This document shows positions 1 through 40,031 of a stretch of 64,000 bases of DNA, one piece after another. This DNA is from Nitrospirae bacterium GWF2_44_13. GTDB taxonomy: Bacteria > Nitrospirota > Thermodesulfovibrionia > Thermodesulfovibrionales > UBA1546. Position numbers and translations under genes: made by a program. The stretch spans positions 171,127-235,126 of the forward strand of contig MHEE01000012.1 in NCBI GenBank assembly GCA_001805105.1. The letters are read 5' to 3'. The notes under the pieces are model-generated. The model did not search any database and had not been told where the DNA came from. It saw only the letters and a list, made by a program, of their open reading frames with translations. How positions within the stretch are numbered: position 1 is the stretch's first letter; the number at the start of each line of letters is the position of its first letter.

Positions 1-1074
1 AACATTTCTAATCTCTATTTTCTTAGTAAATTCAATTTTTTCATTGTTTTCAACTTCAATTTTACCCGTTAATTCCTTAAAAACTATATCCAGTCCCCTT
101 GAGCCAAAAACTAAATAATTATGACTGCCCAATATCCGGCTCAAGGCAGGAAACATTCTATAAAGCGCCATTACATATACAGAAATAAAAGGCAGTATGA
201 AAGCGCTATCACTATATTTATAGATAAAGAAAACAATTACTAAAAGCAAACTTGCAAAACCAATTGTTTCCAATATATTTTTTGGAATTGTCATAAAAGT
301 ATAATAAGTTGTTTGTGTCCTTGTAATTTGTTCGGTGATATCGCTCATTTTTTTTAAAATATTTTTTTTGTCAGGCAGCATTTTGATAAATTTGAAATTT
401 CCAAATGTTTCAGTTAAAATTTTATACAGTCTTTTATCAAAAGACTCTCTTTTGACGCCTTCATCTTTCATGATTTTAGAAGTTATTTTTGTAAGCGCAA
501 ATACTTTAACGCCCAAAACTACTGATAATATTAATGTTGCTTTTATGTTTACAAGCAACAGCACGATATAAAAACAAACCAATATCATTATATCTGATAA
601 AAAAAAGAGCAGATATTGAAGAATAAATGAGAAATACATAGCTTCTGATGTAATACTTTTTATAAGGTCCGCAGAATTCCTATTGGCAAAATCAGAATAC
701 GGCATATTTATATAATTTTGAAAAAGCCGCCGCGATATAGAACGAAATATACCAAAGACATAACTATTTAACAAATAACTATGCAAAATACTATAAATTC
801 CTCTTAATATAAAAAAGCCTGTAAGAATAAGGCCAAATAATATTAAAAAACTGGGGATGCTTGTAAATCCCAAGATGTTATATAGCTTCATATAAAAACC
901 CGTACTTATCAATGCCGGATTAGAAGCAATAGCTATGAACGGCACAATAGAAAAAATCCCAATTGTTTCTATAAGAGTTATTATAAAAGATAAAAAAACT
1001 AAGCCTATCAGCTTTTTTTTATCTTTTGCAGTAAGAATTATCGCTATCTTATTTAAAGAATTTATAAAACTCAC
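1..1074 (-). CDS. ABC exporter, fused TMD-NBD type (MsbA/PglK-like), partial: 3' end lies beyond the left window edge
   Basis: Absent from the ORF track (no stop inside window). Hand translation of the minus strand from GTG 1074..1072 gives 358 open codons down to nt 1: VSFINSLNKIAIILTAKDKKKLIGLVFLSFIITLIETIGIFSIVPFIAIASNP... This is a multi-TM exporter domain ending ...GKIEVENNEKIEFTKKIEIRNV, the usual entry into an ABC ATPase domain. The GTG overlaps the upstream stop (GTGA). Confidence 0.7.
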   Translation of the reverse strand, partial: MSFINSLNKIAIILTAKDKKKLIGLVFLSFIITLIETIGIFSIVPFIAIASNPALISTGFYMKLYNILGFTSIPSFLILFGLILTGFFILRGIYSILHSYLLNSYVFGIFRSISRRLFQNYINMPYSDFANRNSADLIKSITSEAMYFSFILQYLLFFLSDIMILVCFYIVLLLVNIKATLILSVVLGVKVFALTKITSKIMKDEGVKRESFDKRLYKILTETFGNFKFIKMLPDKKNILKKMSDITEQITRTQTTYYTFMTIPKNILETIGFASLLLVIVFFIYKYSDSAFILPFISVYVMALYRMFPALSRILGSHNYLVFGSRGLDIVFKELTGKIEVENNEKIEFTKKIEIRNV

Positions 1075-2795
1075 GAATATCCCCTTCTAAAAATTATTGT
1101 ATTAACTTCATCTTCCCTTAAGGGTGCCGGGGTCTCGCGAATAAGTTTTTTAAGAGAGATATCCGTATTTCCATTTTTTTTGATTTTTCTTGCAAATAAT
1201 TTTTTAAGCAGCACCCTTATTAATCGGTTAAAACCAAAAAATCTTAGAATTACAATATGCTTTAATAGAGATTTCCTTATCCTCCACGGCAACAAACTAT
1301 ATATCAATCCAACTCTCTGCCGTCTTGATTTTTTATTTTTCAAAATATTTATGTATCCGTGCTTTTTGATATGTTTTGCTATTAATTCCAAATAAATATA
1401 AAATTTCCAATAAGCTATTTCTTCCTTCTCGTATTCTGTAAAGTTTAAATATTGGTCTATATCACTTGCATTTGCATTATAAATACTCTCTATATACTTT
1501 TCTTCGTCTTCCAGTGATGGCCCAATGAGACCAATTCTTCTTGTATACTCATAGATTTGTGTGCCGGGAATTGCCTGAACATAATTAACACATATTTCAT
1601 AGGGCATATTTATATCATCCGGTATAACATCCGACAAATTGTCAATTGTTTCCTGTATTGTCTGTTCTGTTTCGCCGGGCATCCCAATCACCAAGCCAAT
1701 TATAGTAAAAATATTATACTTGTAGCACAGTTTTATCGCGTTTATATTTTCTTTAACCGTTGTTTTTTTGTCCATGACGTCAAGCATTTTTTGCGATAAT
1801 GATTCTATGCCAAAATTAATATGCACGCATCCGGATTCGCTCCATGTTTTGATTATTTGTTCGTCAATATTTTTTACTCTTACTGCCCCTGCACTCCAAT
1901 TTAAATTACTGCCTTTTAAATATTCTATAAGTTTTTGGGTATGACTTCCTTTCATTCCAAAATTTTCCTCTGCAAACATGATCATTCCGACATCGCAGTC
2001 TTCTTTAAGCTTATCAATATAATTAACAACATCATCGGTAGCTATAACTTTATATCCTTTATAATATCTATGACAAAAAGAACATCTATTTACACATCCT
2101 TTGCTGGCAAAAACTATTCCTAACTTCTTTCCTCTATTTTCTGGATAAAGTAAACTTAAGAATTTCTTTAGAATTCCAGCATTGAACCTGTCTCTATAAT
2201 GTTGTCCACCATCTATCTGCTGAATATATTGATCTAAATTTGTGAATTTTGATATTAGATTATAGTTGAACTGGCGCAACCCTTTTTCAATATCTTCATT
2301 CGCATACCCGGTAAAATAGGGGATATTATTCCTCAGAAAAACAAGTCCTTTGATATCCATATAGTCGTCTTTATTTCCAATTTCAAAATCATTCTGTTGA
2401 AGTCTTCTAATCAAATCGCTGAAAGCGGGCTCGGATTCGCCAAAACAGCAAAAACCAATTTTTGTTTTCAAGAGAATAATATTAGATATGACACTCATTT
2501 GGCCGCCTAAGACTTGAACAATATCCGGAAAGTTATCTCCAATAAAATTAGATAATCTTTTAAGATACGTATAGGCCGGTGTTAACATGGCGCTGAATCC
2601 TATTATCCGGGGAGAGAAAGCTTGAATTCTGCTTTTAATTTCATCAAATGAAGGCCTGTAATAATCTAAATCGAAAAATGAAACATCGCAGTTTAAAGAT
2701 TGGTCTATGCCCTCCATAACTCTTGATATTGCAACAGGAGCATAATCTGTTGCTGAGGGACCACCGGGTATATTCATTAAAAGTATCTTTGTCAT
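1071..2795 (-). CDS. B12-binding-domain (class B-like) radical SAM enzyme
   Basis: Track ORF 1071..2915 trimmed to internal ATG 2795 (AAGGA 6 nt upstream); the 40 extra N-terminal codons read through the repeat at 2829-2959. MTKILLMNIPGG..., Rossmann-like N-domain (VLGGQ, GESEPAF), then cluster motif ASKGCVNRCSFC. Confidence 0.8.
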   Translation of the reverse strand: MTKILLMNIPGGPSATDYAPVAISRVMEGIDQSLNCDVSFFDLDYYRPSFDEIKSRIQAFSPRIIGFSAMLTPAYTYLKRLSNFIGDNFPDIVQVLGGQMSVISNIILLKTKIGFCCFGESEPAFSDLIRRLQQNDFEIGNKDDYMDIKGLVFLRNNIPYFTGYANEDIEKGLRQFNYNLISKFTNLDQYIQQIDGGQHYRDRFNAGILKKFLSLLYPENRGKKLGIVFASKGCVNRCSFCHRYYKGYKVIATDDVVNYIDKLKEDCDVGMIMFAEENFGMKGSHTQKLIEYLKGSNLNWSAGAVRVKNIDEQIIKTWSESGCVHINFGIESLSQKMLDVMDKKTTVKENINAIKLCYKYNIFTIIGLVIGMPGETEQTIQETIDNLSDVIPDDINMPYEICVNYVQAIPGTQIYEYTRRIGLIGPSLEDEEKYIESIYNANASDIDQYLNFTEYEKEEIAYWKFYIYLELIAKHIKKHGYINILKNKKSRRQRVGLIYSLLPWRIRKSLLKHIVILRFFGFNRLIRVLLKKLFARKIKKNGNTDISLKKLIRETPAPLREDEVNTIIFRRGYS

Positions 2796-2828
2796 CAATA
2801 ATCCTTTTTTATTAATAGAGCATTGTTT

Positions 2829-2959: not shown

Positions 2960-2963
2960 TTGT

Positions 2964-4196
2964 TTATTTCAAAGAATTTTTAGGGGTTTTCAACAGCGTC
3001 ATTATATTTTTCATTGCTCTAACGGTTCCGCCGTAAAAGCCCGCGAAAAAGATAAAAAAACCATACTTAAAAAGTTCCCTAAATAATTCTAAAGCATATA
3101 ACACTTTTTTATTTTTAATGAGGGCAAACATTGTAAAAGTTAGTCCATTAATTGAATTTACCTTAAAGGTTCTGCTTAAAAAAATTTCAACTTTTTCTAT
3201 TTGTTGAGTATTATTCTTTTCTAAAATTTCTCCTAATTCTCTTAATATGTTTGGTATAACAACTTGAGGCAAAAAGTTATTAATTGCCTTTTCGTATGCA
3301 TTTTTTGCTATAACTTCCCTTATATCCGCATGTAACAGATAGTACCTTACCTTTTCTATTAATTCCTCCTTGCTATTGAATATATCTACTTCTTCCCCAA
3401 CCTCTGCAAAGACATGTATATTGGGTGTATATTCAGCAAGACAAAATGTTCTTGTTAAAGCGCTTTCACACCAATGTCCGCCTGACTGTCTCGCCCTGTT
3501 TAATAATGGATCATCTTTATTCATCCAGAGCAAGTCACTCAGTTTATTAAAATTCAAAGCAATTTTGCTTCTTGATAATATGTTTGAAAATTTGTCCCAT
3601 TCAAGAAAACCATTTTTTGAACCTTCTCCAAAGGTTTCTACATTAATGCCATTGTCAATTAAAAAGTTTATATATTCCATTCTGTCACGTTGATTACAAC
3701 CTCCGATAAAACAGACATCAATATCTTTAGTTGCTTCAATTGGGAAGTAAATATTTTGCGGGTGCGTGGTCGAAAAGAAAATGGATGGTATATTTAACTT
3801 TTGATAAGCATAAACACTGAAAAAATCACAAGTAATAACTGCGTCGGCGATTTGGCAATAGTATTTACTGTGTGAATCAAAATACGCTTCATCATCCCAC
3901 ATCCAAAAAACTATTTTTGTTTTATTTTTCAGAGATGCATAAAATTCAACCGATAATTGATAATTCCCAGGAAAAGGAGAAGAAATAACAATATTTACTT
4001 TTTTTTCAAATATAAAATTACTTATATATTTTTCAGTATTTCTAATCCCATATTTATAGCTATATTCAACAAAATTGAAATAGTAAATATTAGTTAAAGA
4101 TTTTTTTAACTCATCACAAATAAAATTTAAGTACTGATTTTTATTTGTAGGCAATAAATATAAAATATTTTTGTCCACAAAATAGTTCTGCTGCAT
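2964..4196 (-). CDS. CgeB-type glycosyltransferase (GT-B, Glyco_trans_1_2-like)
   Basis: 410 aa. The segment IFNSKEELIEKVRYYLLHADIREVIAKNAYEKA matches the CgeB-family signature (FxxxEELxEKIxYYLxHxxERExIAxxG). Paralogue of the next gene. Very AT-rich. Confidence 0.55.
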   Translation of the reverse strand: MQQNYFVDKNILYLLPTNKNQYLNFICDELKKSLTNIYYFNFVEYSYKYGIRNTEKYISNFIFEKKVNIVISSPFPGNYQLSVEFYASLKNKTKIVFWMWDDEAYFDSHSKYYCQIADAVITCDFFSVYAYQKLNIPSIFFSTTHPQNIYFPIEATKDIDVCFIGGCNQRDRMEYINFLIDNGINVETFGEGSKNGFLEWDKFSNILSRSKIALNFNKLSDLLWMNKDDPLLNRARQSGGHWCESALTRTFCLAEYTPNIHVFAEVGEEVDIFNSKEELIEKVRYYLLHADIREVIAKNAYEKAINNFLPQVVIPNILRELGEILEKNNTQQIEKVEIFLSRTFKVNSINGLTFTMFALIKNKKVLYALELFRELFKYGFFIFFAGFYGGTVRAMKNIMTLLKTPKNSLK

Positions 4197-4205
4197 AGAT
4201 AAAAT

Positions 4206-5435
4206 TTATTGCCTTCTGAATATTGATTTTAGAACAGATTTGATTCTAGGAAACATATCTAAAATTTCTTCTTTAAAAAATATAACAATTTGATACAAAT
4301 CAAGTTTTCTGTATTTTAAGATAATCTTTAATTCTTCAAATGCAAATTTAAATTTTAATTGCGTTATAAACCTGATAATTAAAAGCGTTCTGTATGTCGT
4401 GTAATTTCTTATAAATTCTTCATCAAGATATATTTCTGACGGTTTGTATGTTTTCGTTTTCCGCAGTCCATCTATTATTGAAATTAATTTAGGAACAGCC
4501 CGCTCTACAGCATAATCTTTGAGCGCCCTTTCATAACCCTTTTGGGCAATTTTTTCTCTTTCTTCTTCATGAGCAAGATAGTATTTTATTTTTTCAAGCA
4601 GTTCTTCCTTATCATGAAAAATATCTATTTCCTTGCCTACCTCAAAAAAATATTCCAATCCCGGCGCATACTCACACAATGCAAAACTGCCACACATCGT
4701 ATATTCAAAGACTTTTCCCTTAATTTGTTTCATGCGTTTATAGATTTGATGTTTTCTTGTCAACCTCGTTTTTCCCGATACTCCGCTAAAATCTAAATTT
4801 ATTTTACTTCTATTTATAATCTCAATCTTTTTCTCAAATGTTATCCGGCCATTTGGGGAATCCGATCCAAAGGTTTCAATATTAATTCCATTAGCCGACA
4901 AATGCATGATATTATGCCATCTTCCTGCCCCGCCATGTAATGTCCCTATAAAGGATACATCTATATCTTTTGCCAAATTTCCATTTTTACTGTATTTTGT
5001 AGAATCATAATAAGCATAATATGGAATTGAATTGATACCAATTTGACGTAATTTAAAAGTAGAGATGAAATCGTTAACGGTTACTAAATCCATTGCCTGA
5101 GCATAATATTGGTCACGAATTTCATAGTAATATTCTGTATCGCCCGTCATCATTACCAAAAAAACTTCTTTCCTTAGTTTTTCAAGATAGTTAATATCAA
5201 AATAAAACTCGCTTGGACTGGAACCATATATTAGACAGTTAATCCCATTGTCTCTCACATATTTTTTAAGGTAATGATGGGCGCCATAGTGCCCATATTT
5301 ATTATATAGCTGTACATAACTTAGGTATGCAGCGTTATTATTTCGCAATGCCTGTATAAATTGGTTCCCGGTATCATAAGGAGCCTTACTATAGTCCACC
5401 GTGTGAGAAAGAAATAATATTTTTATTTCATCCAT
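4206..5435 (-). CDS. CgeB-type glycosyltransferase (GT-B, Glyco_trans_1_2-like), paralogue
   Basis: 409 aa; IFHDKEELLEKIKYYLAHEEEREKIAQKGYERALKDY. Same architecture as 2964..4196. Confidence 0.55.
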   Translation of the reverse strand: MDEIKILFLSHTVDYSKAPYDTGNQFIQALRNNNAAYLSYVQLYNKYGHYGAHHYLKKYVRDNGINCLIYGSSPSEFYFDINYLEKLRKEVFLVMMTGDTEYYYEIRDQYYAQAMDLVTVNDFISTFKLRQIGINSIPYYAYYDSTKYSKNGNLAKDIDVSFIGTLHGGAGRWHNIMHLSANGINIETFGSDSPNGRITFEKKIEIINRSKINLDFSGVSGKTRLTRKHQIYKRMKQIKGKVFEYTMCGSFALCEYAPGLEYFFEVGKEIDIFHDKEELLEKIKYYLAHEEEREKIAQKGYERALKDYAVERAVPKLISIIDGLRKTKTYKPSEIYLDEEFIRNYTTYRTLLIIRFITQLKFKFAFEELKIILKYRKLDLYQIVIFFKEEILDMFPRIKSVLKSIFRRQ

Positions 5436-5444
5436 AATTTTGAA

Positions 5445-8249: not shown

Positions 8250-8259
8250 AGGCGGTAAG

Positions 8260-11027: not shown

Positions 11028-11036
11028 TATGGCCCT

Positions 11037-14549: not shown

Positions 14550-14553
14550 TGAA

Positions 14554-16496: not shown

Positions 16497-16506
16497 TATT
16501 AATTAT

Positions 16507-20440: not shown

Positions 20441-20457
20441 ATTTGTTTGCCGCGAGG

Positions 20458-20961: not shown

Positions 20962-20963
20962 AA

Positions 20964-22735: not shown

Positions 22736-22736
22736 T

Positions 22737-24661: not shown

Positions 24662-24671
24662 TCACCTCTCC

Positions 24672-25844: not shown

Positions 25845-25860
25845 CGGAATCTTCTTCTCC

Positions 25861-27572: not shown

Positions 27573-27588
27573 GATAAAATTTTCAACA

Positions 27589-28710: not shown

Positions 28711-28754
28711 GCATAGCGCCTTGATACGGCTAATCCAATACTATAAATTGAAAA

Positions 28755-31642: not shown

Positions 31643-31644
31643 GG

Positions 31645-33410: not shown

Positions 33411-34838
33411 CTAATGAGCAGGCTTGGCTCTCACCATTTTCACAAATGAAATAAAGTCATTGAAAAGCAGAGGGATAAACTTTGGCTTCTCAAGCAGGAG
33501 TTTTGCATATTTAGCTATTATGCGCGGCCTTAAATAAAACTTCCTAAATGCTTCATTCCTTTTTTTTATAAGATAACTTTTGGTCAGTGCGTGGGGAACA
33601 AATACAATATTCCACATGTTCATGTGTTCCCAATCATCATCAAATTCGCCGGTTGTTTTTGCTATTTCATGTACTTCAGAGCCTGGAAATGGAGTAAGAA
33701 ATGTTATTTGGAAATCAGAGAGCGGAAGTGAAAGAGCAAAATCAATAGTCCTCTGTACTGTGTCCTGCGTCTCGTTTGGGAATCCAATAATAAAATACCC
33801 CTTTGATCTGATTCCGGCAGCTTCAGTCCATGCGACAGTTCTCCTCACCTGTTCCATGCTAATGTTTTTATTGACCTGTTTTAGAATTTCCGGCGCTCCA
33901 CTTTCGACCCCATACGCAATCTGGAAACAACCTGCATCTCGCATCATCTCAAGGGATTCCTGTGTCATCATATCAACTCTCGAGGAGCAACTCCACGGAA
34001 TTGAACTAAATCGCGCCTTAAGGCCTGAGCATATAGATCGAAGACGTTTCTTATCGTAGGCAAAAGTGTCATCATTGAATATCAAACTCTTGATGTTATG
34101 ATTCTCTACCAACTGGCCGATCATGTTAAGGACGTATTCCGCACTATGCCCACGAATTCTCCGGCCAAAAACACTGACGTCACAAAAAGTACACTTTCCA
34201 AAACATCCCCGCGAGGTAATAAGGCTTGCTGTCGGCTGATCCTGAAAGCGGGTAGCGGAAAGCTTATACAGCTCGAATGGCAGCAAAAGATCCCATGCAG
34301 GTAAAGGCAAGGTATCAAGGTTTTGTATAAATCCCCTGCTTTCGGTTTTAATCAACTGCCGGCCATTTCTAAAAATAATTCCGGCGACTTTACTTAAAGA
34401 GGCGTTATTCGAAAGCGCGTCAAGGAGATCAATCAAGGTTTCCTCTCCTTCTCCTAAGACTCCGACATCAAAAGAATCATACCTTTTCATTGTCATCTCA
34501 GGCACGGCAGATATATGAGGACCGCCCAAGATAACTTTAACGCTTGAATTAGCCGCTTTCAGGTGCATAGCCAGTCTGCTTGCGGAAGCAATCGCCATCG
34601 TTGCAGCAGATATTCCCACGAATGCAGGATTAAGTGAGAGCACTTCATTCACAATCCTATCAAATGGCCTTTCCGGGCATGAAGCATCAATCAAAAAGGT
34701 CTCATAGCCAGCCTTTTTACAGATGGCGCTAAGATAAAGCAGACCTATTGGCGGCATGTTTGCCCCACCTTTTCCAAGAGAGCCGTAACGCTCCTCAAGG
34801 GTTAGCGGTGGTGATATAAAAACAATCCTCTCTCTCAT
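33411..34838 (-). CDS. B12-binding-domain radical SAM enzyme
   Basis: Trimmed to ATG 34838 by alignment with its paralogue (MRERIVFISPP vs MYSKKIVFIEPS). ILGGPHIS, VLGEGEETLIDLL, ITSRGCFGKCTFC. Confidence 0.8.
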   Translation of the reverse strand: MRERIVFISPPLTLEERYGSLGKGGANMPPIGLLYLSAICKKAGYETFLIDASCPERPFDRIVNEVLSLNPAFVGISAATMAIASASRLAMHLKAANSSVKVILGGPHISAVPEMTMKRYDSFDVGVLGEGEETLIDLLDALSNNASLSKVAGIIFRNGRQLIKTESRGFIQNLDTLPLPAWDLLLPFELYKLSATRFQDQPTASLITSRGCFGKCTFCDVSVFGRRIRGHSAEYVLNMIGQLVENHNIKSLIFNDDTFAYDKKRLRSICSGLKARFSSIPWSCSSRVDMMTQESLEMMRDAGCFQIAYGVESGAPEILKQVNKNISMEQVRRTVAWTEAAGIRSKGYFIIGFPNETQDTVQRTIDFALSLPLSDFQITFLTPFPGSEVHEIAKTTGEFDDDWEHMNMWNIVFVPHALTKSYLIKKRNEAFRKFYLRPRIIAKYAKLLLEKPKFIPLLFNDFISFVKMVRAKPAH

Positions 34839-34916
34839 ACTATAGAACCTACATTTCGGGAGACGCACATGTGGGCATAAAGGCGCACCTTCTGCATGTT
34901 CATTGCAAAATCATTT

Positions 34917-36335
34917 CTAATGATTATTGCCTTTGAGTACATATTGACCGAGCATATAAGCCCCTCGCAAAGCAATTATGGGATTTTTTACCATTTTTAA
35001 ATACGACAATACTGGCCGGGGCCGAAAAAAGAATTTGCGCATTGCTCTTTTCTGGTTCTCAATCAGTTGTTTTTTTGTTAGGCATCGAGGAATAAAAACC
35101 GGTGAGAACAAATTCATCCCCTCCCATTCATTCTCAAACGCCCCGTATTCATCTGCCATAAGCGAGGCTTTTGTGCCTGGCAGGGGGGTGAAAAAAGTCA
35201 TCCTGAAGTCATCCAACCCGCAATTACACGCAAATTCTATTGTTTCATCAATAGTCTCTTGGGTTTCACCAAAGTGGCCGATCATAAAAAAGCCAACTGT
35301 TCTGATTCCCGCACTGCGGGCCATATCAATAGCCCTGCATACTTTCTCTTTGGTGATATTTTTGCCAAGTAAATCCATGATCCTCTGATTGCCGGTTTCA
35401 ATGCCATAGGATATCTGCCAACATCCGGCTTTTGCCATAAGATTAAGCATCTCCTGATTTACCATATCAACTCGTGCATTGCAGGACCACGTCAAATCAA
35501 GCTTCTTTTCTATCAACATATTGAGCAGTTTTTTCAAATTCTCCCTAAACGTGACAAAATTATCATCAAAAAGCATAAATTCCCGAATGTCATATCTTTC
35601 CTTAAGATGTTTCAGCATATTTATTATGTATTCTGCAGAGTATGTCGAAATTGTCTTGTGGCAGCCGCTATAGCAAAAGATGCATTTGCCAGGGCAGCCC
35701 CTCGAAGTAAGTATGGGGGTTGCCGGTGTGCGGTGCGCTGCAAATAGAGGGGTTTTATAAATATATGGAAAGCCCTCGAGAATATCCCAAGCGTACAGAG
35801 GAAGATCGTCTAATTTTATTTTTTCTCCTCGCTGCCCGGTATTTATAAGCTGGCTATGCTCCCGGCTTATAGTGCCTTTAACAGTACTTGCTGCATTCCC
35901 TTTATTTACTGTATCGAGTAACTCCGGCAAAGAATAATCTGCTTCACCTATAAATCCTATATCGATATCGGGAAAACGAAGCATTGTCTCTTCAGGAACT
36001 GATGAAATATGCGCTCCACCCAAGAGAATAATTGCTTCCGGCACTGCGGCTTTTATAGCCTTTGCAAGTTTACCAGCCTGCATGATATGAGGCGTCATTG
36101 CAGTCAAGCCTACAAATCGTGGGTTGATCTTCTTAAGTCTGCCAATAACATCTCCATAAGTCAGTCCAAGAGCTGGACAATCAATAATGTGGGGGGCATA
36201 GCCTCTCTCACGAACAATAGCAGCTAAGAGAAGCAAATTAAGAGGCGGTGAGACTGCTCCGACCTTTGCTAAACCTCCATAAATTTCCTCTAATGCCACG
36301 GAGGGTTCTATGAAAACAATTTTTTTAGAATACAC
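34917..36335 (-). CDS. B12-binding-domain radical SAM enzyme, paralogue of 33411..34838
   Basis: LLGGAHIS, FIGEADYSLPELL, LTSRGCPGKCIFC. C-terminal ends are similar (FRKFYLRPR / MRKFFFRPR). Confidence 0.8.
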   Translation of the reverse strand: MYSKKIVFIEPSVALEEIYGGLAKVGAVSPPLNLLLLAAIVRERGYAPHIIDCPALGLTYGDVIGRLKKINPRFVGLTAMTPHIMQAGKLAKAIKAAVPEAIILLGGAHISSVPEETMLRFPDIDIGFIGEADYSLPELLDTVNKGNAASTVKGTISREHSQLINTGQRGEKIKLDDLPLYAWDILEGFPYIYKTPLFAAHRTPATPILTSRGCPGKCIFCYSGCHKTISTYSAEYIINMLKHLKERYDIREFMLFDDNFVTFRENLKKLLNMLIEKKLDLTWSCNARVDMVNQEMLNLMAKAGCWQISYGIETGNQRIMDLLGKNITKEKVCRAIDMARSAGIRTVGFFMIGHFGETQETIDETIEFACNCGLDDFRMTFFTPLPGTKASLMADEYGAFENEWEGMNLFSPVFIPRCLTKKQLIENQKRAMRKFFFRPRPVLSYLKMVKNPIIALRGAYMLGQYVLKGNNH

Positions 36336-36337
36336 TG

Positions 36338-37078
36338 CTATTTTATCCTTTTCAGTCGTAAAAGCATTAAGAGGGTTCTTTTTATTGTCTTTATAACTTC
36401 CATCTTGCTTTCTCCTTCTTTTTGATCATATCTGAGAATGAGGGGAACTTCTACCGCAAGAATATCCATGCTTCTCAACTTTATTAGCAGTTCTGCCATG
36501 CATGCAAACCCTTTCTCCTCTATGAGCCTATCTTTAAACTTCTCATGGGCATTCCTCAAACATTCAAGACTATAAGCACGGTAACCACAGGTGTAATCCT
36601 TAACGCCCTTAATTGGGAAAAGTATTCTCATCATCCACGAGGCGCCTATGCTAAGTATCTGTCTGAGTTTTGTCACACCGATTATCCTGCTATCCCCGAG
36701 ATATCTGGATGCAATAGCAACATCAAAGCCGTCTCTTATTTTATTTACCATCTGATAAATATGCTCCGGATTGTGTGTATTATCAGAATCAAGGACAATA
36801 GCGATATCTTCTTCGTTAAATGAAAGCTTAAGCACTTCTCTGATAAGGCTAAAAAAGGCAAATCCCAATCCTTCATTCTGGTCCTTCCCTATAATTTTGA
36901 GTGGAATACCATATTTATTCTGCTTTAGAATATCAAGCGTATTGTCTGTGCTGCCATCATTGTAAGCAATTACTTGATAATCAAAACTATGACTCTCCAT
37001 CTCTGTTTTAATACGCTTTAGAAGGGGCTCAAGCGCCTTCCCCTCATTATAGGCAGGCAGTAGAATATAGATTATCAA
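36338..37078 (-). CDS. GT2 polyprenyl-phosphate glycosyltransferase, DPM1/Ppm1-like (soluble type)
   Basis: MIIYILLPAYNEGKAL, YNDGSTDNT, VLDSDNTHNPE (compare DPM1 DADxxHxP), VAIASRY, VKDYTCGYRAY. Confidence 0.75.
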   Translation of the reverse strand: MIIYILLPAYNEGKALEPLLKRIKTEMESHSFDYQVIAYNDGSTDNTLDILKQNKYGIPLKIIGKDQNEGLGFAFFSLIREVLKLSFNEEDIAIVLDSDNTHNPEHIYQMVNKIRDGFDVAIASRYLGDSRIIGVTKLRQILSIGASWMMRILFPIKGVKDYTCGYRAYSLECLRNAHEKFKDRLIEEKGFACMAELLIKLRSMDILAVEVPLILRYDQKEGESKMEVIKTIKRTLLMLLRLKRIK

Positions 37079-37092
37079 ATTATTATCTCAAT

Positions 37093-38529
37093 TTAATTCG
37101 TAGGACTTAGGAATCTTCGGAAATAACCAACGCCAAAACTCATCAGGCGCAAGAACTCTGCGGGTCTGAGCGCCCGTTTGAAGAGAATCCAAGCATACGC
37201 CGGACGCAGGTAGAATTTACGGTATGCTTTTCTAATAATCTTATCCAATTTCTCTTTTTTCACTCCTGGAATTTCAATAACAAATTGACTTCCACCAGTC
37301 ATATAGTTGTCCCAATTGACATCCACGACTAAATTTTTGGCTCTAACTATGTCAAAAAATTCTGTTCCAGGATATGGTGTTGCAGGATAAAACTCTACGT
37401 AGTCCGGGTTAATTTGCTTTGCAAAATCCACTGTCTCTTGAATTGTCTCTCGGGTCTCTCCAGGCAGCCCTATGAGAAAATAAACAAGAGAACTAATTCC
37501 GACTTTTCTAAGAAGTTTAACGGTATCCTTAATATGTTCAGGCTTCGTCCCTTTTTTTATCATTTTAAGAATTTGGGCATTGCCGCTCTCACCTCCGATG
37601 GAGAGCATAAAGCAACCGGCATCTCTCATGAGCTGGAACATCTCTTCGTCCCGCTTATCTACACGGGTATTGGTCCACCACGTAATCTTAATTTTACGCT
37701 CAATTATTGCCTTGCATAGTTTTTTTACATATTCAGGCGAGCATGTAAAATCATCAGCATGCATCCAGACATGACGAATACCGAATTTGCCTATAACATG
37801 ATTCTCCAACTCATCTATAACACTTGCTATAGAGCGAAAACGGACTTTTTTGCCATAGTAGAGATGTCCAACACAAAAAATACAATTATGAACGCATCCC
37901 CTTGAAGCACTTACCATCACATAAGGCTTATTAAAAATGGGATGAAAATATCTTGATTTATCAAAATGTTCCCAGGCCGGGAACCCAAGCGAATCCAGAT
38001 CGGAATTATACTCTCTATCTGCTGAAACAATGACTTTTCCATTAACCCGCATGGTGCATCCATGTATTCCTTCATCCGGAATTCTCCCATCTTGAAGAGC
38101 TGAAATCAATTCCTGGCTGGTCCATTCGGGTTCATGGCGTATCACACAGTCAATAAATGAATTTTTATTCATAATCTCTTGATGGAGAGCAGTTACATGG
38201 GTTCCAAAAACCACGGTAAAACAACCCTGATAGCGTTTCTTGAATGTTTCAACAAATAATAAATCAGCATTTATTGAAGGTGTTACAGTATTAATAAATG
38301 CCGCTTCAGGTTGAAACTCATCCATATCCATAAACAAATCTTCATTAGTTATTCCTGAGGCAATACAGTCATAAACCTTCAGGGTGTGACCACCGCGGCC
38401 ATGGATTCCGGCCAAATAAGCCAGTGTCATCTGTGGTATAGAGGTCTTGCGCATATTTTGAGAAGACTGGCAGCGCCCTTCACGAATAATTGATATATGA
38501 TAAGGAGGATTGAGTATCAAGATTTTCAT
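37093..38529 (-). CDS. B12-binding-domain-like radical SAM enzyme
   Basis: MKILILNPPYH..., VFGTHVT, SASRGCVHNCIFC. Confidence 0.75.
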   Translation of the reverse strand: MKILILNPPYHISIIREGRCQSSQNMRKTSIPQMTLAYLAGIHGRGGHTLKVYDCIASGITNEDLFMDMDEFQPEAAFINTVTPSINADLLFVETFKKRYQGCFTVVFGTHVTALHQEIMNKNSFIDCVIRHEPEWTSQELISALQDGRIPDEGIHGCTMRVNGKVIVSADREYNSDLDSLGFPAWEHFDKSRYFHPIFNKPYVMVSASRGCVHNCIFCVGHLYYGKKVRFRSIASVIDELENHVIGKFGIRHVWMHADDFTCSPEYVKKLCKAIIERKIKITWWTNTRVDKRDEEMFQLMRDAGCFMLSIGGESGNAQILKMIKKGTKPEHIKDTVKLLRKVGISSLVYFLIGLPGETRETIQETVDFAKQINPDYVEFYPATPYPGTEFFDIVRAKNLVVDVNWDNYMTGGSQFVIEIPGVKKEKLDKIIRKAYRKFYLRPAYAWILFKRALRPAEFLRLMSFGVGYFRRFLSPTN

Positions 38530-38537
38530 AAAAGGTT

Positions 38538-40031
38538 TTAATCGATAGAAAGGAAAAATTGTTTAAACTTTCTTATTAAAAACATTTCAGGAACAGACTT
38601 AAATGCGTTAAGCCGCCAACGGATTAAAAACCAGAATCTTATAGGCAAATATAATATTTTAGCGAGTTTAGGCAGAGCCTGATAAAACAAATCGGATATA
38701 AGGTATGAGATAGTAACGATATTTTCGTAAAATTGATACTCTTTTTTGTCAACTTTGCCCTTCTTGAGGTTAAGATGATGGAAAGTTGTCCACTCATAGA
38801 TAGTCTTTGGGACTTCATCAGGGTAATCCTGTCTATAAACGTCGAATAAAGCGGTTCCCGGGTAAGGAGTAAAGTTATTAATATTTGCAAGTTGGGCATT
38901 AGGATTTTCTTGCTTGAGTTTTTTCATCATATTAACTGTTGCAAGCGCATCTTCCCTCTTTTCCCGTGGAAATCCGATCATAAAGTTGTACGCAGGAGTA
39001 AGATTCAGATTTTTACACTCACGATTAACTTCATATATATCCTTTGTCGTAATCCCTTTTTTAATAAAAGAGAGAATTTTTTCTGAGCCTGATTCAACCC
39101 CAAATCGAAGTATTGCGCCTATCTTTTTTAAATCTTGACGTGCTTCATTTGGAAGGCGTTTGAATTCTTGTATAGTGATACCGGGAAGATAAACTTTTAA
39201 CTTCTGCCGGCACAGATATTCAATGATTGCAGCAGCTCTGGGTATGTTAACAAAAAAATTATCGTCTCGAATCCAAATAGACCTTAGCTTGTATTTCTCA
39301 GTGTTGTATTGTATCATTTCTATTGTTTTTTCCTTACTCATTGAACGCCATTTACGGCCGAAAAAGGCTGCATTGTAACAATACGCACATTCCCAACAAC
39401 AACCCCTGCTTGTTTCTCCCAAATCTAACTCCCGGTCCGAAAGTAAAGAGGCTTTCTTAAAAATATATTTCTCCGCATCGACAAGGCCGAAACGGTCAAT
39501 CGGAAAGGTATCCATATTGATTAAGGGGCGTTTAGGCGTTCTCACTATTTGTTTCCCATTCTTAAAGATTAGTCCCGGTACCGACATAAGAATATCCATT
39601 TTATTTTCATTAAGTGCGTTAACTAATTCGAGGATAGTTTCTTCCCCTTCTCCAATTACACCAAAATCAATTAATTCACACTGAATGCTCTGTTCCGGCA
39701 CAAGGGAGACATGGACGCCGCCAAAAACAATTGGAGTCGCAGGAGAATGTTCTCTTATAAAATTGGCGATATTAAGGGCATTTTTAAGTTGAACCCCTGT
39801 CATGGAGGAAATTCCAATCAATAATGGTTCTTGCTTCAGTTCCTCTCTTATGACATTTTCCCAGTTTTTCTCAATTCTCTGGTCAATGATAATGATACGA
39901 TTTTTTATTTTATGGTGGACCAAATAAGCGCCCACCGCTAAAATGCTATGAGGTGGAGTAATTCCAACCCCGATATCATAACCAGTATTTGGATAGATTA
40001 AAATTACACTCCGATATCGAGAGTATGCCAT
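38538..40031 (-). CDS. B12-binding-domain radical SAM enzyme
   Basis: VFGGVHVS, VIGEGEETILELV, ETSRGCCWECAYC. Confidence 0.8.
   Translation of the reverse strand: MAYSRYRSVILIYPNTGYDIGVGITPPHSILAVGAYLVHHKIKNRIIIIDQRIEKNWENVIREELKQEPLLIGISSMTGVQLKNALNIANFIREHSPATPIVFGGVHVSLVPEQSIQCELIDFGVIGEGEETILELVNALNENKMDILMSVPGLIFKNGKQIVRTPKRPLINMDTFPIDRFGLVDAEKYIFKKASLLSDRELDLGETSRGCCWECAYCYNAAFFGRKWRSMSKEKTIEMIQYNTEKYKLRSIWIRDDNFFVNIPRAAAIIEYLCRQKLKVYLPGITIQEFKRLPNEARQDLKKIGAILRFGVESGSEKILSFIKKGITTKDIYEVNRECKNLNLTPAYNFMIGFPREKREDALATVNMMKKLKQENPNAQLANINNFTPYPGTALFDVYRQDYPDEVPKTIYEWTTFHHLNLKKGKVDKKEYQFYENIVTISYLISDLFYQALPKLAKILYLPIRFWFLIRWRLNAFKSVPEMFLIRKFKQFFLSID

What the first reader, a model, noticed from the sequence alone, without database searches (positions are those of the whole stretch)
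1071..40031. Eleven radical SAM genes (ten B12-domain type) embedded in a purely glycan locus
Seen: ten ORFs combine an N-terminal Rossmann-like module (GG-x-H/Q and (G)EGE-type signatures, as in cobalamin-binding domains) with a CxxxCxxC cluster motif. They are 1071..2795 (CVNRCSFC), 6300..8249 (CPFSCSYC), 9627..11027 (CPNRCNFC), 11037..12362 (CPYDCYFC), 12362..13972 (CPHRCSFC), 33411..34838 (CFGKCTFC), 34917..36335 (CPGKCIFC), 37093..38529 (CVHNCIFC), 38538..40031 (CCWECAYC), and 51770..53296 (CPYGCTFC) in the neighbouring unit. 8260..9627 is HemN-like (CKMQCYYC). Five of them are consecutive and translationally coupled (6300..13972). Established: characterised class B enzymes functionalise unactivated C or P centres (GenK/GenD1 on aminoglycoside sugars, Fom3, PhpK, TsrM, HpnP/HpnR, BchQ/R, PoyB/C). 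Inference: the context is nucleotide-sugar enzymes, GTs, Wzy/WaaL-like proteins and an ABC exporter. There is no PKS/NRPS, no aminocyclitol genes and no convincing precursor peptide. The simplest reading is a surface glycan or polyprenyl-linked glycolipid bearing many radical-installed modifications, such as C-methylation or other C-C/C-H chemistry. I know of no characterised cell-surface polysaccharide pathway with this density of divergent class-B-like paralogues.
Basis: partly seen in the sequence, partly recalled or inferred. Interest (0 to 1): 0.9.

Follow-up and report, generated by a model that had tools for sequence, protein, structure and literature searches.

The report
Radical-SAM-rich surface glycan operon
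An uncultured anaerobic groundwater bacterium has a sugar-coat gene operon of more than 55 kb that holds at least 13 radical SAM enzymes, and parts of this gene set recur next to sugar-building genes in many distant microbes, which points to an unstudied way of chemically remodelling cell-surface sugars.

Summary
All eleven ORFs carry CxxxCxxC and match PF04055. Ten also match the B12-binding domain, eight of them above Pfam's cut-off. Two more B12-type genes lie just beyond the window's left edge.

The window comes from a Thermodesulfovibrionales MAG (Nitrospirae bacterium GWF2_44_13). The genes form one minus-strand array that includes a UpxY antiterminator and a MarR-EPS regulator.

The array is a mosaic of modules that are conserved across phyla:
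- **Module A:** a GDP-sugar cassette (HddA/HddC-like, dehydratases, RfbH-like, E1 alpha/beta, NUDIX, DJ-1). It contains a TokK/CysS-like methylase, a HemN-like enzyme and three further class-B paralogues.
- **Module B:** a Dol-P-Man-synthase-like GT2 flanked by four radical SAM genes and followed by a GT-C-fold membrane protein. The window also contains a second GT2, radical SAM, PMT_2 unit.

Orthologues elsewhere always sit in glycan loci. None was found in a lipid, cofactor or RiPP locus.

The best reading is radical tailoring of nucleotide-linked and polyprenyl-phosphate-linked sugars for a surface glycan. The chemistry is inferred, and it need not all be cobalamin-dependent or methylation: one paralogue folds most like AprD4. 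No curated family cut-off is met except HemN's, whose conserved context contradicts a heme role.

The parts
1..1074 (-). N-terminal 358 codons of a fused TMD-NBD ABC exporter. The full protein is 570 aa and continues beyond the window.
   Evidence: The ORF runs off the window edge. The full protein, read from L014, scores 504.5 bits against NCBIfam PglK over its full length, versus 297 for MsbA.
1071..2795 (-). B12-binding/radical SAM paralogue with motif CVNRCSFC. It has its own orthogroup, which is paired with a Glyco_trans_1_2 glycosyltransferase in other phyla.
   Evidence: PF04055 73 bits and PF02310 35.4 bits. Orthologues score 600-754 bits next to the GT in Methanoperedens L007 and Elusimicrobia L008.
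2964..5435 (-). Two soluble Glyco_trans_1_2-type glycosyltransferases (2964-4196 and 4206-5435).
   Evidence: PF13524 at 45.6 and 89.6 bits. No transmembrane segment predicted.
5445..6299 (-). Short-chain dehydrogenase. It is the conserved partner of the TokK-like enzyme.
   Evidence: PF00106 173 bits. It is adjacent to the 6300-type gene in L007, L008, L009 and L019.
6300..8249 (-). TokK/CysS/KedN5-like cobalamin radical SAM C-methyltransferase candidate (CPFSCSYC).
   Evidence: TokK 7kdx 294 bits, E 2e-86, over residues 19-477. CysS 184 bits. NCBIfam KedN5 233 bits against a cut-off of 700.
8260..9627 (-). HemN-like radical SAM protein (CKMQCYYC). It is annotated publicly as coproporphyrinogen III oxidase.
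   Evidence: TIGR00538 369.7 bits, above the 325 cut-off. The alignment to 1olt shows FQGYT replaced by SLGYT. Homologues at 49-69% identity all lie in NDP-sugar cassettes.
9627..13972 (-). Three consecutive B12-binding/radical SAM paralogues: 9627-11027, 11037-12362 and 12362-13972.
   Evidence: Pfam hits. Best NCBIfam partial hits are Sden_1168 at 211 bits, PhpK at 106 bits and ApyD/BchE at 141 bits, all below their cut-offs. Orthologues are syntenic in L008, L009, L019, L020 and L021.
13962..28710 (-). Nucleotide-sugar cassette. In order: NUDIX, two SDR epimerase/reductases, HAD, UxaA-like dehydratase, Fcl-like plus cupin, DJ-1/PfpI, E1 beta/alpha thiamine enzyme, Gmd-like dehydratase, SDR, RfbH-like DegT, HddA-like GHMP kinase, HddC-like guanylyltransferase, FAD oxidoreductase.
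   Evidence: Pfam. NCBIfam: HddC 260 bits (cut-off 300), HddA 155, Fcl 402 (cut-off 500), Gmd 159, RfbH 267.
28755..31642 (-). Polytopic membrane proteins. One is a Wzy_C-like gene split by an in-frame TAG (28755-29573 plus 29574-30176). The other is a Wzy-like repeat-unit polymerase candidate (30173-31642).
   Evidence: Wzy_C 18 bits. TIGR04370 37 bits against a cut-off of 40. Transmembrane counts are 5, 4 and 11. The TAG is shown.
31645..33405 (-). DUF2079 membrane protein with a GT-C glycosyltransferase fold.
   Evidence: PF09852 152 bits. AF2 model pLDDT 85.4. The top 21 Foldseek PDB hits are all GT-C enzymes, including PglB, ArnT, DPY19, ALG9 and AftA.
33411..36335 (-). Two HpnJ-like B12-binding/radical SAM paralogues (33411-34868 and 34917-36335), 41% identical to each other.
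   Evidence: Pfam. HpnJ 212 and 168 bits against a cut-off of 578. An orthologue of 34917 (619 bits) follows the GT2 in Riflebacteria L017.
36338..37078 (-). Small GT2 (246 aa, one C-terminal hydrophobic segment). Candidate polyprenyl-phosphate sugar synthase.
   Evidence: Best PDB match is Dol-P-Man synthase 5mlz at 76.6 bits, followed by ArnC and GtrB. Orthologues at 316-338 bits immediately follow the 37093-type gene in L016, L017 and L018.
37093..40031 (-). Two radical SAM paralogues. 37093-38529 is HpnJ/BchE-like by sequence and AprD4-like by fold. 38538-40031 carries the motif CCWECAYC.
   Evidence: Pfam. HpnJ 231 bits. AF2 pLDDT 91.4 and AprD4 6fd2 TM 0.79/0.83.
40320..42884 (-). UDP-glucose 6-dehydrogenase (40320-41648), UpxY-family antiterminator (41761-42309) and MarR-type EPS regulator (42306-42884). 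These mark the regulatory head of the array.
   Evidence: Pfam. UpxY 128 bits, above the cut-off of 100. MarR_EPS 72.6 bits, below the cut-off of 88.
50232..54228 (-). Second lipid-linked-sugar unit: ArnC/PgfS-like GT2 (53293-54228), then B12-binding/radical SAM (51770-53296), then PMT_2 GT-C (50232-51899).
   Evidence: PgfS 227 bits and ArnC 188 bits over the full length. PF02310 73.7 and PF04055 91.7 bits. PMT_2 38.3 bits, above the cut-off of 26.1.

Best explanation
The window is most of a unidirectional cell-surface glycan operon longer than 55 kb. It belongs to an anaerobic Thermodesulfovibrionales bacterium, and in it radical SAM enzymes act as sugar-tailoring enzymes. The operon is a mosaic of units that are each conserved, probably through horizontal transfer, in other uncultured microbes.

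Module A (about 28.7 to 5.4 kb) builds one or more exotic GDP-activated sugars by a route resembling the GDP-heptose and lincosamide pathways. The route uses a GHMP kinase, a HAD phosphatase and a guanylyltransferase. These are followed by 4,6-dehydration, RfbH/ColD-type 3-deoxygenation, epimerase/reductases, a thiamine-dependent two-carbon transfer and a sugar-acid-type dehydratase. On these intermediates a TokK/CysS-like cobalamin methylase adds methyl group(s) to unactivated carbon. Three further class-B paralogues and a HemN-like enzyme carry out additional radical steps.

Module B (about 40.0 to 31.6 kb), and again the unit at 54.2 to 50.2 kb, works on a lipid carrier. A small GT2 loads a monosaccharide onto polyprenyl phosphate. 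Adjacent radical SAM enzymes remodel that sugar on the cytoplasmic face, by C-methylation, deoxygenation or ring rearrangement. A GT-C enzyme (DUF2079 or PMT_2) then transfers it outside the membrane onto the glycan or a protein.

The backbone oligosaccharide is assembled by GT1/GT4 enzymes, flipped by a PglK-like ABC transporter, and polymerised or ligated by Wzy-like and Wzy_C-like proteins.

Shown here: domain content, fold assignments, gene order and cross-phylum synteny. Inferred: every substrate, the stage at which each radical SAM enzyme acts, cobalamin use, and the chemistry.

The confidence of 0.62 applies to the general claim that the radical SAM enzymes tailor sugars of a surface glycan. 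The specific claims about the lipid-linked stage and about methylation deserve about 0.35 each.
For: Radical SAM and B12 domains:
- All eleven carry the radical SAM domain and ten carry the B12-binding domain.
- 6300-8249 matches TokK at 294 bits and CysS at 184 bits.

Orthogroups and synteny:
- Paralogues within the locus are only 20-33% identical. Each has orthologues at 50-69% identity in other phyla, so they are distinct orthogroups and not recent duplicates.
- Module A synteny (NUDIX, 12362/11037/9627-type, HemN-like, 6300-type, SDR, GT, with GHMP kinase, E1 alpha/beta, DJ-1, DegT and NTP-transferase) appears in Elusimicrobia L008, L009 and L020, Omnitrophota L021, L019 and Methanoperedens L007. 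It appears in part in Kiritimatiellae, SAR11-like MAGs and Magnetomicrobium.
- Methanoperedens L007 has ORFs whose N-terminal sequences look like GmhA, GmhB and Wzm/Wzt beside the cassette. This assignment is by eye and was not tested.
- HddC-like 260 bits (cut-off 300), HddA-like 155, Fcl-like 402, RfbH-like 267.

Module B:
- The 37093-type gene is immediately followed by a 36338-type GT2 orthologue in Brocadiales, Riflebacteria and Omnitrophota.
- More distant family members in Nanoarchaeota and another MAG sit with small GT2 and PMT_2 genes.
- DUF2079 orthologues directly abut a B12 radical SAM gene.
- The GT2's best solved match is Dol-P-Man synthase, then ArnC and GtrB. The other two GT2s are PgfS/ArnC-like over their full length.
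- DUF2079 has a GT-C fold.

Assembly and regulation:
- PglK-like ABC transporter.
- UpxY passes its cut-off.
- Wzy-like and Wzy_C-like proteins are present.

Precedents from the literature:
- Radical SAM enzymes acting on lipid-linked sugars: HpnJ and calditol synthase (PMC13459092), and MoeK5 (PMC9204698).
- Tailoring at the lipid-linked stage in three-component GT-C systems (PMC11127046).
Against: - No product is known and nothing has been tested biochemically. The organism is uncultured.
- None of the class-B paralogues reaches the curated cut-off of any characterised family.
- Cobalamin binding is not demonstrated. Two B12-domain hits fall below Pfam's cut-off. The best structural neighbour of 37093-38529 is AprD4, which as far as I recall does not use cobalamin.
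- No cobalamin riboswitch or any other Rfam family was found in the window.
- No initiating phosphoglycosyltransferase, Wzx or GtrA-type flippase was found in the roughly 74 kb seen.
- The Wzy-like hit is just below its cut-off, the Wzy_C hit is weak, and the Wzy_C-like gene is interrupted by a TAG codon.
- Gene adjacency cannot tell whether the radical SAM enzymes act on NDP-sugars, on polyprenyl-P-sugars or on the finished glycan.
Confidence: 0.62

Rival explanations
1. The operon makes an exported small molecule and not a cell-surface polymer. The product would be an oligosaccharide or glycolipid natural product, comparable to an aminoglycoside or moenomycin. The radical SAM enzymes would act as antibiotic-type tailoring enzymes and the ABC transporter as an efflux pump.
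For: The nearest characterised relatives are antibiotic enzymes: TokK and CysS, AprD4 and the KedN5 family. The ABC protein is of the fused exporter type. No initiating phosphoglycosyltransferase or Wzx is visible in the 74 kb seen.
Against: - A UpxY-family antiterminator and an EPS-type MarR regulator are present.
- The ABC transporter matches the lipid-linked-oligosaccharide flippase PglK far better than efflux pumps.
- Wzy-like and Wzy_C-like proteins, three GT-C enzymes and three polyprenyl-P-sugar-synthase-like GT2s are present.
- Related loci carry Bac_transf, Glycos_transf_4 and Wzy_C genes.
- No aminocyclitol, PKS or NRPS genes were found.
- The modules occur in streamlined SAR11-like and DPANN genomes.
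Confidence: 0.13
2. The HpnJ-, BchE- and ladderane-like paralogues modify membrane lipids (hopanoid-like or other isoprenoid or alkyl chains). The glycosyltransferases would only add head groups.
For: The best NCBIfam partial hits include HpnJ at 168-231 bits and the lipid-biosynthesis B12 radical SAM family at 90-125 bits. The HpnI-HpnJ logic, a glycosyltransferase followed by a radical SAM enzyme acting on a lipid-linked sugar, resembles module B (PMC13459092).
Against: - All scores are far below the cut-offs (578 for HpnJ, 360 for the ladderane family).
- No squalene-hopene cyclase, hpn, fatty-acid or isoprenoid genes appear in the window or in any related locus.
- The conserved partners are nucleotide-sugar enzymes, Dol-P-Man-synthase-like GT2s and GT-C transferases.
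Confidence: 0.06
3. The cluster modifies a tetrapyrrole or other cofactor. This was proposed for the radical-SAM-rich loci next to NifH paralogues in groundwater Elusimicrobia. HemN would act as a genuine coproporphyrinogen oxidase and the BchE-like proteins would act on porphyrins.
For: 8260-9627 passes the HemN equivalog cut-off and aligns over its full length with E. coli HemN. BchE is a top partial hit for several paralogues. Meheust et al. describe up to 13 radical SAM genes, some with B12-binding or HemN_C domains, beside NifHDK paralogues in Rifle Elusimicrobia (10.1101/765248).
Against: - No NifH-like P-loop motif (GKGGxGKS) was found in the ORFs of at least 90 aa of L007-L013. No nitrogenase-like or tetrapyrrole-pathway Pfam family was reported for any window ORF.
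- HemN-like homologues at 49-69% identity are embedded in NDP-sugar cassettes in three further phylum-level contexts.
- The FQGYT segment of E. coli HemN is replaced by SLGYT. As far as I recall, that segment contacts the second SAM molecule.
- BchE scores of 117-202 bits are far below the 481 cut-off.
Confidence: 0.03
4. The radical SAM enzymes mature a ribosomal peptide (RiPP), and the sugars only glycosylate it.
For: Partial hits to ApyD (131-176 bits) and to the RiPP C-methyltransferase subfamily TIGR03975 (up to 113 bits).
Against: - All hits are below their cut-offs (750 and 282).
- Intergenic space is minimal. The only small ORF noticed looks like a Wzz C-terminal fragment.
- No protease, leader-peptide-binding or cyclodehydratase gene is present.
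- The conserved partners are sugar enzymes.
Confidence: 0.02

Closest known systems
GenK / GenD1 (gentamicin) and MoeK5 (moenomycin): cobalamin radical SAM C-methyltransferases acting on sugars
   Same: They have the class-B architecture and methylate unactivated sugar carbons. MoeK5 acts in the pathway to a lipid-linked saccharide. Reviews place MoeK5, Fom3 and HpnJ in one sequence-similarity-network neighbourhood (PMC9204698).
   Different: Each is a single tailoring enzyme of a secondary metabolite. Here at least 12 divergent paralogues sit in a UpxY-controlled surface-glycan operon that also has a PglK-like flippase and GT-C enzymes.
TokK / ThnK / CysS / KedN5 iterative cobalamin radical SAM methylases
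   Same: 6300-8249 aligns with TokK over the cobalamin domain, the radical SAM domain and the start of the C-terminal domain (294 bits, E 2e-86). It matches CysS at 184 bits. KedN5 is its best NCBIfam family.
   Different: The KedN5 score of 233 bits is below the cut-off of 700. The roughly 170 C-terminal residues are unmatched. The substrates of the known enzymes are carbapenem or aryl-ether intermediates on pantetheine, whereas here the conserved neighbours are GDP-sugar enzymes and an SDR.
AprD4 / AprD3 (apramycin): radical SAM 1,2-diol dehydratase on an aminoglycoside sugar
   Same: AprD4 is the best structural match of the 37093-38529 model (TM 0.79/0.83 over the full length) and its best PDB sequence hit (95 bits). 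It acts on a sugar diol, and SDR reductases are plentiful in the locus.
   Different: Identity is only 21%. The NCBIfam AprD4 score is 117 bits against a cut-off of 500, and HpnJ scores higher. From memory, AprD4 does not bind cobalamin. Whether 37093-38529 does is unknown.
HpnI-HpnK-HpnJ (hopanoid cyclitol ether) and calditol synthase Cds
   Same: A glycosyltransferase puts a hexose on a lipid, and a radical SAM enzyme then rearranges that lipid-linked sugar (PMC13459092). HpnJ is the best NCBIfam hit for 33411, 34917 and 37093, which flank a GT2.
   Different: Scores of 168-231 bits are far below the 578 cut-off. No hopanoid or archaeal tetraether genes are present. The presumed lipid here is polyprenyl phosphate, and a GT-C enzyme follows.
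Three-component polyprenyl-phosphate sugar systems (GtrB/ArnC/PgfS plus a GT-C; ArnD or an epimerase acting at the lipid-linked stage)
   Same: A Dol-P-Man-synthase/ArnC/PgfS-like GT2 plus a GT-C (PMT_2 or DUF2079) lie in one unit. There is precedent for modifying the sugar while it is on the lipid (PMC11127046).
   Different: No known system of this kind includes radical SAM enzymes. No GtrA or ArnEF-type flippase was found here.
GDP-heptose (HddA/GmhB/HddC) and GDP-octose (lincosamide LmbP/K/O) pathways
   Same: The logic is a GHMP kinase, a HAD phosphatase and a guanylyltransferase, followed by dehydratase, epimerase and aminotransferase steps. ORFs in the Methanoperedens homologue L007 look like GmhA and GmhB by their N-termini (not tested).
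   Different: No GmhA is present in the window. The HAD protein is of the beta-phosphoglucomutase type. HddA and HddC score below their cut-offs. The known pathways contain no radical SAM enzymes, E1 alpha/beta, UxaA-like dehydratase or DJ-1 protein.

Membership tests
Class B (cobalamin-dependent) radical SAM enzymes | Radical SAM core with a CxxxCxxC cluster motif (PF04055) | tested here: met
   All ten hit PF04055 at 51.9-101.2 bits against a cut-off of 29.5. The two extra genes left of the window also hit it.
Class B (cobalamin-dependent) radical SAM enzymes | N-terminal Rossmann-type B12-binding domain (PF02310) | tested here: met
   Eight of ten are above the gathering score of 32.1. 11037-12362 (27.1 bits) and 37093-38529 (26.4 bits) are below it but have E no greater than 7e-6. 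The AF2 model of 37093-38529 superposes over its full length on TsrM, OxsB, CysS and TokK.
Class B (cobalamin-dependent) radical SAM enzymes | Actual binding and use of cobalamin | not testable with these tools
   The best structural neighbour of 37093-38529 is AprD4. From memory, AprD4 has the domain but no cobalamin. No cobalamin riboswitch is present in the window.
Characterised class-B equivalogs (HpnJ, BchE, PhpK, Sden_1168, KedN5, HpnR, BzaD, QCMT, ladderane family, ApyD) | Score at or above NCBIfam's curated cut-off | tested here: not met
   The best ratios are KedN5 233/700, HpnJ 231/578, Sden_1168 211/575 and BchE 202/481.
TokK/CysS-type cobalamin C-methyltransferases (for 6300-8249) | Full-architecture similarity to a solved member | tested here: met
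   TokK 7kdx 294 bits, E 2e-86, query residues 19-477 against chain residues 21-479. CysS 184 bits.
HemN, oxygen-independent coproporphyrinogen III oxidase (for 8260-9627) | Score above the TIGR00538 cut-off and full-length similarity to E. coli HemN | tested here: met
   369.7 bits against a cut-off of 324.95. 268 bits over residues 10-451 against 1olt. The YxHxPFC, CxxxCxxCxC and GGGxPT segments are conserved.
HemN, oxygen-independent coproporphyrinogen III oxidase (for 8260-9627) | Role in heme synthesis, judged by genomic association and conservation of the FQGYT segment | tested here: not met
   In the window and in L008, L009, L019, L020 and L021 the gene lies inside NDP-sugar and radical SAM cassettes, with no tetrapyrrole genes. 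FQGYT is replaced by SLGYT.
UpxY-regulated polysaccharide loci | A UpxY-family NusG paralogue at the head of a long unidirectional glycan operon | tested here: met
   NF033644 128 bits against a cut-off of 100. All genes from 46449 down to beyond the left edge are on the minus strand.
Wzx/Wzy-dependent or LLO-type glycan assembly | Initiating phosphoglycosyltransferase, flippase, and polymerase or ligase | tested here: inconclusive
   A PglK-like ABC flippase is present at 504 bits, below the 1000 cut-off. The Wzy-like hit is 37 bits against a cut-off of 40. The Wzy_C hit is 18 bits and the gene is split by a TAG. No Bac_transf or Glycos_transf_4 was found in the 74 kb seen, though both occur in related loci L018 and L022.
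Three-component polyprenyl-P-sugar / GT-C glycosylation systems | A polyprenyl-phosphate glycosyltransferase (GT2) plus a GT-C transferase in one unit | tested here: met
   GT2 36338-37078 matches Dol-P-Man synthase at 76.6 bits, then ArnC and GtrB. GT2s 53293 and 60315 are PgfS/ArnC-like at 188-270 bits. PMT_2 scores 38.3 bits, above the 26.1 cut-off. DUF2079 has a GT-C fold.
Three-component polyprenyl-P-sugar / GT-C glycosylation systems | A small GtrA/ArnEF-type flippase | tested here: not met
   No such family appeared among the scanned window ORFs of at least 100 aa. Smaller ORFs were not scanned. LPG_synthase_TM proteins occur in related loci L022 and L024.

The most novel reading that the evidence does not exclude
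There may be a widespread, undescribed branch of glycan biosynthesis in uncultured anaerobes. It would span Nitrospirota, Elusimicrobiota, Omnitrophota, Brocadiales, Riflebacteria, DPANN archaea and Methanoperedens.

In it, monosaccharides carried on polyprenyl phosphate or on GDP are rebuilt by batteries of radical SAM enzymes before GT-C or Leloir transfer. The steps could include iterative C-methylation, radical deoxygenation, and ring contraction to carbasugars. The result would be surface glycans made of C-alkylated, branched or carbocyclic sugars not yet seen in any polysaccharide.

A corollary is that some '+14 Da methylated' sugars reported by mass spectrometry alone on anammox S-layer glycans (PMC5088730) may be C-methyl rather than O-methyl.
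Probability: 0.35. Interest if true: 0.9.

Novelty: new variant of a known kind. Interest (0 to 1): 0.78.

Why it matters
Cobalamin-type radical SAM enzymes form a very large family that is mostly uncharacterised. Two recent reviews list members acting on antibiotics, cofactors, lipids and proteins, and neither mentions polysaccharide or glycan assembly.

This locus and its cross-phylum relatives give a concrete and testable functional context for a dozen orthogroups at once: tailoring of nucleotide-linked and lipid-linked sugars.

If confirmed, this would have several consequences:
- It would add radical C-C and C-H chemistry to the rules of cell-surface glycan biosynthesis.
- It would predict new sugar structures in environmentally dominant anaerobes, including relatives of anammox bacteria.
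- It would explain part of their cobalamin demand.
- It would supply enzymes for making C-alkylated sugars.
- It would show that the public annotation 'coproporphyrinogen III oxidase' for this HemN-like clade is probably wrong.

Tried and rejected
- **Anammox origin.** The sample label 'ANAN16' first suggested an anammox reactor. The cluster look-up showed the organism is the Rifle groundwater MAG Nitrospirae bacterium GWF2_44_13. The anammox S-layer papers therefore bear on this only indirectly, through the Brocadiales orthologue.
- **Own genome not found.** The genome-contig scan did not return the organism's own genome, only relatives at up to 64% identity.
- **Link to the NifH-paralogue loci of Elusimicrobia.** No NifH-like motif was found in the related loci L007-L013.
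- **RNA elements.** No tRNA gene and no Rfam family was found, so there is no cobalamin riboswitch in the window. The promoter and terminator scan was at background level.
- **Phosphonate reading.** The Sden_1168 and PhpK partial hits prompted this idea. It was rejected because no PEP mutase or phosphonate gene is present.
- **Literature.** Nine searches for radical SAM combined with polysaccharide, O-antigen, undecaprenyl, GT-C or polyprenyl terms found no paper that describes such a system.
- **TIGR04157.** The weak hit of a GT4 to TIGR04157 'glyco_rSAM_CFB' (47 bits against a cut-off of 400) was judged uninformative.
- Walking further left along the contig was blocked by the look-up rules.

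Full report
**Observation**

All large ORFs but one lie on the minus strand. Eleven of the 56 minus-strand ORFs of at least 100 aa contain a CxxxCxxC motif. All eleven match the Radical_SAM domain (E from 1e-13 to 9e-29).

Ten also match the B12-binding domain N-terminal to the cluster. Eight are above Pfam's gathering score. 11037-12362 (27.1 bits) and 37093-38529 (26.4 bits) are just below it.

8260-9627 has the radical SAM domain plus a weak HemN_C hit. It passes NCBIfam's HemN cut-off (369.7 against 325). The five consecutive genes are separated by -1, 9, -1 and 10 nt. Paralogues share 20-33% identity, with one pair at 41%.

**Source and extent**

Exact-sequence look-ups identify the window as the MAG 'Nitrospirae bacterium GWF2_44_13', order Thermodesulfovibrionales. 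The same gene order occurs on contigs from several independent assemblies.

The array continues past the left edge of the window. It holds a PglK-like ABC transporter (504 bits over its full length), a class I methyltransferase, an asparagine synthase-like protein, a GT4, a B12 radical SAM protein (496 aa), a DUF362 protein, another B12 radical SAM protein (484 aa) and another GT4.

The contiguous unit therefore holds at least 11 class-B-type genes plus the HemN-like gene, and the neighbouring unit holds one more (51770-53296). At the head of the array sit rml-like genes, a MarR-EPS-type regulator and a UpxY-family antiterminator that passes its cut-off (128 against 100). GC content varies from 30% to 45% in blocks along the array, as expected for a mosaic.

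**Context**

Pfam and NCBIfam scans of every large ORF found only four kinds of gene:
- nucleotide-sugar enzymes;
- glycosyltransferases;
- polytopic membrane proteins of glycan assembly;
- two type IV pilin-like proteins and the regulators.

No PKS/NRPS, aminocyclitol, isoprenoid, tetrapyrrole or RiPP machinery was found. No tRNA gene and no Rfam family (including a cobalamin riboswitch) was found either.

**What the paralogues resemble**

No class-B paralogue reaches the curated cut-off of any characterised family. The best ratios are KedN5 233/700, HpnJ 231/578, Sden_1168 211/575 and BchE 202/481.

6300-8249 is clearly related to the structurally solved iterative cobalamin methylases TokK (294 bits, E 2e-86, residues 19-477) and CysS (184 bits).

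An AlphaFold model of 37093-38529, built from 42 homologues (pLDDT 91.4), superposes best on AprD4 (TM 0.79/0.83). AprD4 is the radical SAM diol dehydratase that deoxygenates an aminoglycoside sugar. The next matches are the cobalamin enzymes TsrM, MgmA, OxsB, CysS and TokK. From memory, AprD4 carries the Rossmann domain without binding cobalamin. 'B12-domain type' is therefore an architectural statement and not proof of cofactor use.

The 37093 family has an invariant N-terminal REGRC motif and two further near-invariant cysteines. I cannot explain these.

**Conservation, the key result**

Each paralogue has orthologues in other phyla that are much closer (50-69% identity) than its paralogues within the locus. 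They are therefore separate orthogroups. Two modules stand out.

*Module A.* This module runs NUDIX, 12362-type, 11037-type, 9627-type, HemN-like, 6300-type, SDR, GT. It is accompanied by a GHMP kinase, a guanylyltransferase, E1 alpha/beta, DJ-1/PfpI, HAD, DegT and many SDR enzymes.
- It is syntenic in three Elusimicrobia genomes, an Omnitrophota genome and an unassigned contig.
- It is present in part in Methanoperedens, Kiritimatiellae, SAR11-like Alphaproteobacteria and Magnetomicrobium.
- HemN-like homologues chosen only by sequence, at 69%, 50% and 49% identity, all turned out to lie inside such cassettes.
- The nucleotide-sugar part resembles the GDP-heptose pathway: HddC-like 260 bits (cut-off 300), HddA-like 155, Gmd-like, RfbH-like 267, Fcl-like 402.
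- The Methanoperedens version has ORFs whose N-termini look like GmhA and GmhB by eye. This was not tested.

*Module B.* The 37093-type gene is immediately followed by an orthologue of the 246-aa GT2 (316-338 bits) in Brocadiales, Riflebacteria and Omnitrophota. Further radical SAM genes and PMT_2 or DUF2079 proteins lie nearby.
- Family members at 37-40% identity, from a Nanoarchaeota genome and another MAG, again sit with small GT2s, PMT_2 and more B12 radical SAM genes.
- Orthologues of the DUF2079 protein directly abut a B12 radical SAM gene in two further loci.
- The GT2's best solved relatives are Dol-P-Man synthase, ArnC and GtrB.
- The other two GT2s in the window are PgfS/ArnC-like over their full length.
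- A model of the DUF2079 protein (pLDDT 85.4) hits only GT-C enzymes in its top 21 PDB matches.
- The window repeats the same logic at 54.2-50.2 kb: ArnC-like GT2, radical SAM, PMT_2.

**Interpretation**

The simplest model that accounts for all of this is a surface-glycan operon in which radical SAM enzymes tailor sugars at two stages. One stage is on GDP-linked intermediates (module A). The other is on polyprenyl-phosphate-linked monosaccharides, between their synthesis by a GT2 and their transfer by a GT-C enzyme (module B).

Precedents exist for each element:
- radical SAM enzymes that act on lipid-linked sugars: HpnJ and calditol synthase (PMC13459092), and MoeK5 (PMC9204698);
- sugar tailoring at the lipid stage in three-component systems (PMC11127046);
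- cobalamin methylases and AprD4 acting on aminoglycoside sugars.

The PglK-like transporter, the Wzy-like and Wzy_C-like proteins and the pilin genes suggest a lipid-linked oligosaccharide route that ends on LPS, capsule or a protein. The substrates, the order of steps, cobalamin use and the actual reactions are all inference.

**Rivals**

- *Secreted glycoside natural product.* This is the most serious rival. The nearest characterised enzymes are antibiotic enzymes and no initiating transferase was seen. The regulators, the flippase type, the GT-C enzymes and the spread into streamlined genomes argue against it.
- *Lipid modification.* There are no lipid genes, and scores are far below the cut-offs.
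- *Tetrapyrrole or cofactor modification.* The HemN-like gene passes the HemN cut-off, and Rifle Elusimicrobia have radical-SAM-rich NifH-paralogue loci (10.1101/765248). However, no NifH-like motif was found in L007-L013. No nitrogenase-like or tetrapyrrole Pfam family was reported for any window ORF. The HemN-like clade's conserved context is sugar metabolism.
- *RiPP maturation.* No precursor gene or RiPP machinery is present.

**Novelty**

Two recent reviews of cobalamin radical SAM enzymes contain no mention of polysaccharide or glycan assembly. Nine literature searches found no description of such a system.

The enzyme families and the glycan-assembly logic are each known. Their combination, its density here (at least 13 radical SAM genes) and its cross-domain conservation are new. 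I therefore rate it a new variant of a known kind, of high interest, with the chemistry still open.

Noticed in passing
window 28755-30176 (-): Two adjacent membrane-protein ORFs (200 aa and 272 aa, the second weakly Wzy_C-like) are in the same frame and separated by a single TAG codon. This could be a pseudogene, a sequencing error or a read-through site in an O-antigen-ligase/O-OTase-like gene.
   Followed up: partly
window 40041-40187 (-), in the 289-nt gap between 38538-40031 and the UDP-glucose dehydrogenase gene: A 48-codon ORF (MNCSEFVEQDIDKPYIPKMSVSPNIKKNIILAGVISLFAGIFLAFFME) looks like the proline-rich motif plus last transmembrane helix of a Wzz-type chain-length regulator. It is probably a gene remnant and not a precursor peptide.
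   Followed up: no
window 47481-47975 (-) and 63212-63745 (-): Two type IV pilin-like proteins (N_methyl motif, one N-terminal transmembrane segment) bracket the second glycan unit. That unit includes ArnC/PgfS-like GT2s, a PMT_2 GT-C and a 9-TM protein with a TPR tail (61295-62809). The arrangement suggests pilin glycosylation.
   Followed up: partly
window 8260-9627 (-); public records OGW31430.1 and relatives: This HemN-like clade is annotated 'oxygen-independent coproporphyrinogen III oxidase' in NCBI and JGI records and passes TIGR00538. Its conserved context in at least five phylum-level settings is an NDP-sugar and radical SAM cassette, so the annotation is probably an over-extension.
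   Followed up: yes
L002/L015 (JGI 3300009296) 8624-9990; NCBI OGW73254.1: In a sister population (Nitrospirae bacterium RIFOXYB2_FULL_43_5) the HemN-like gene is split into 151-aa and 302-aa ORFs, and the asparagine synthase gene is split as well. This could be gene decay or assembly error.
   Followed up: no
L014 19125-20099 (left of the window): A DUF362 protein (324 aa) sits between two B12 radical SAM genes. It might be an iron-sulfur electron-transfer partner.
   Followed up: no
L020 13403-14110 and L021 11413-12186: A PhyH-type Fe(II)/2-oxoglutarate dioxygenase lies close to the HemN-like gene in Elusimicrobia (one gene away) and directly next to it in Omnitrophota. The window has no such gene. 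This places oxygen-dependent and radical chemistry side by side in these cassettes.
   Followed up: no
L011, L012 (AG-901-J22 and Rickettsiales MED652, AT-rich marine Alphaproteobacteria): These streamlined marine genomes carry a TokK-like cobalamin radical SAM gene (about 48% identical to 6300-8249) and an 11037-like gene beside ORFs that look, by eye, like NeuB, NeuC and CMP-sugar synthetase. A cobalamin-type enzyme in such genomes is unexpected.
   Followed up: partly
alignment A1 (37093-38529 family): There is an invariant N-terminal motif, R16-E17-G18-R19-C20, in a loop of lower model confidence. C272 and C306 are nearly invariant. Together these could be ligands for an auxiliary cluster.
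   Followed up: no
window 46513-47484 (+): This is the only large plus-strand gene, an NDP-sugar epimerase/dehydratase. It converges on the pilin gene with a 4-nt overlap and diverges from the rmlA-like gene, so it marks the boundary between the two minus-strand arrays.
   Followed up: no
window 1-6000 and 28000-32000 versus 18000-24000: GC content is 30-33% in the blocks that hold glycosyltransferases and Wzy-like membrane proteins, and 44-45% in the sugar-nucleotide block. This is consistent with a mosaic origin of the operon.
   Followed up: partly
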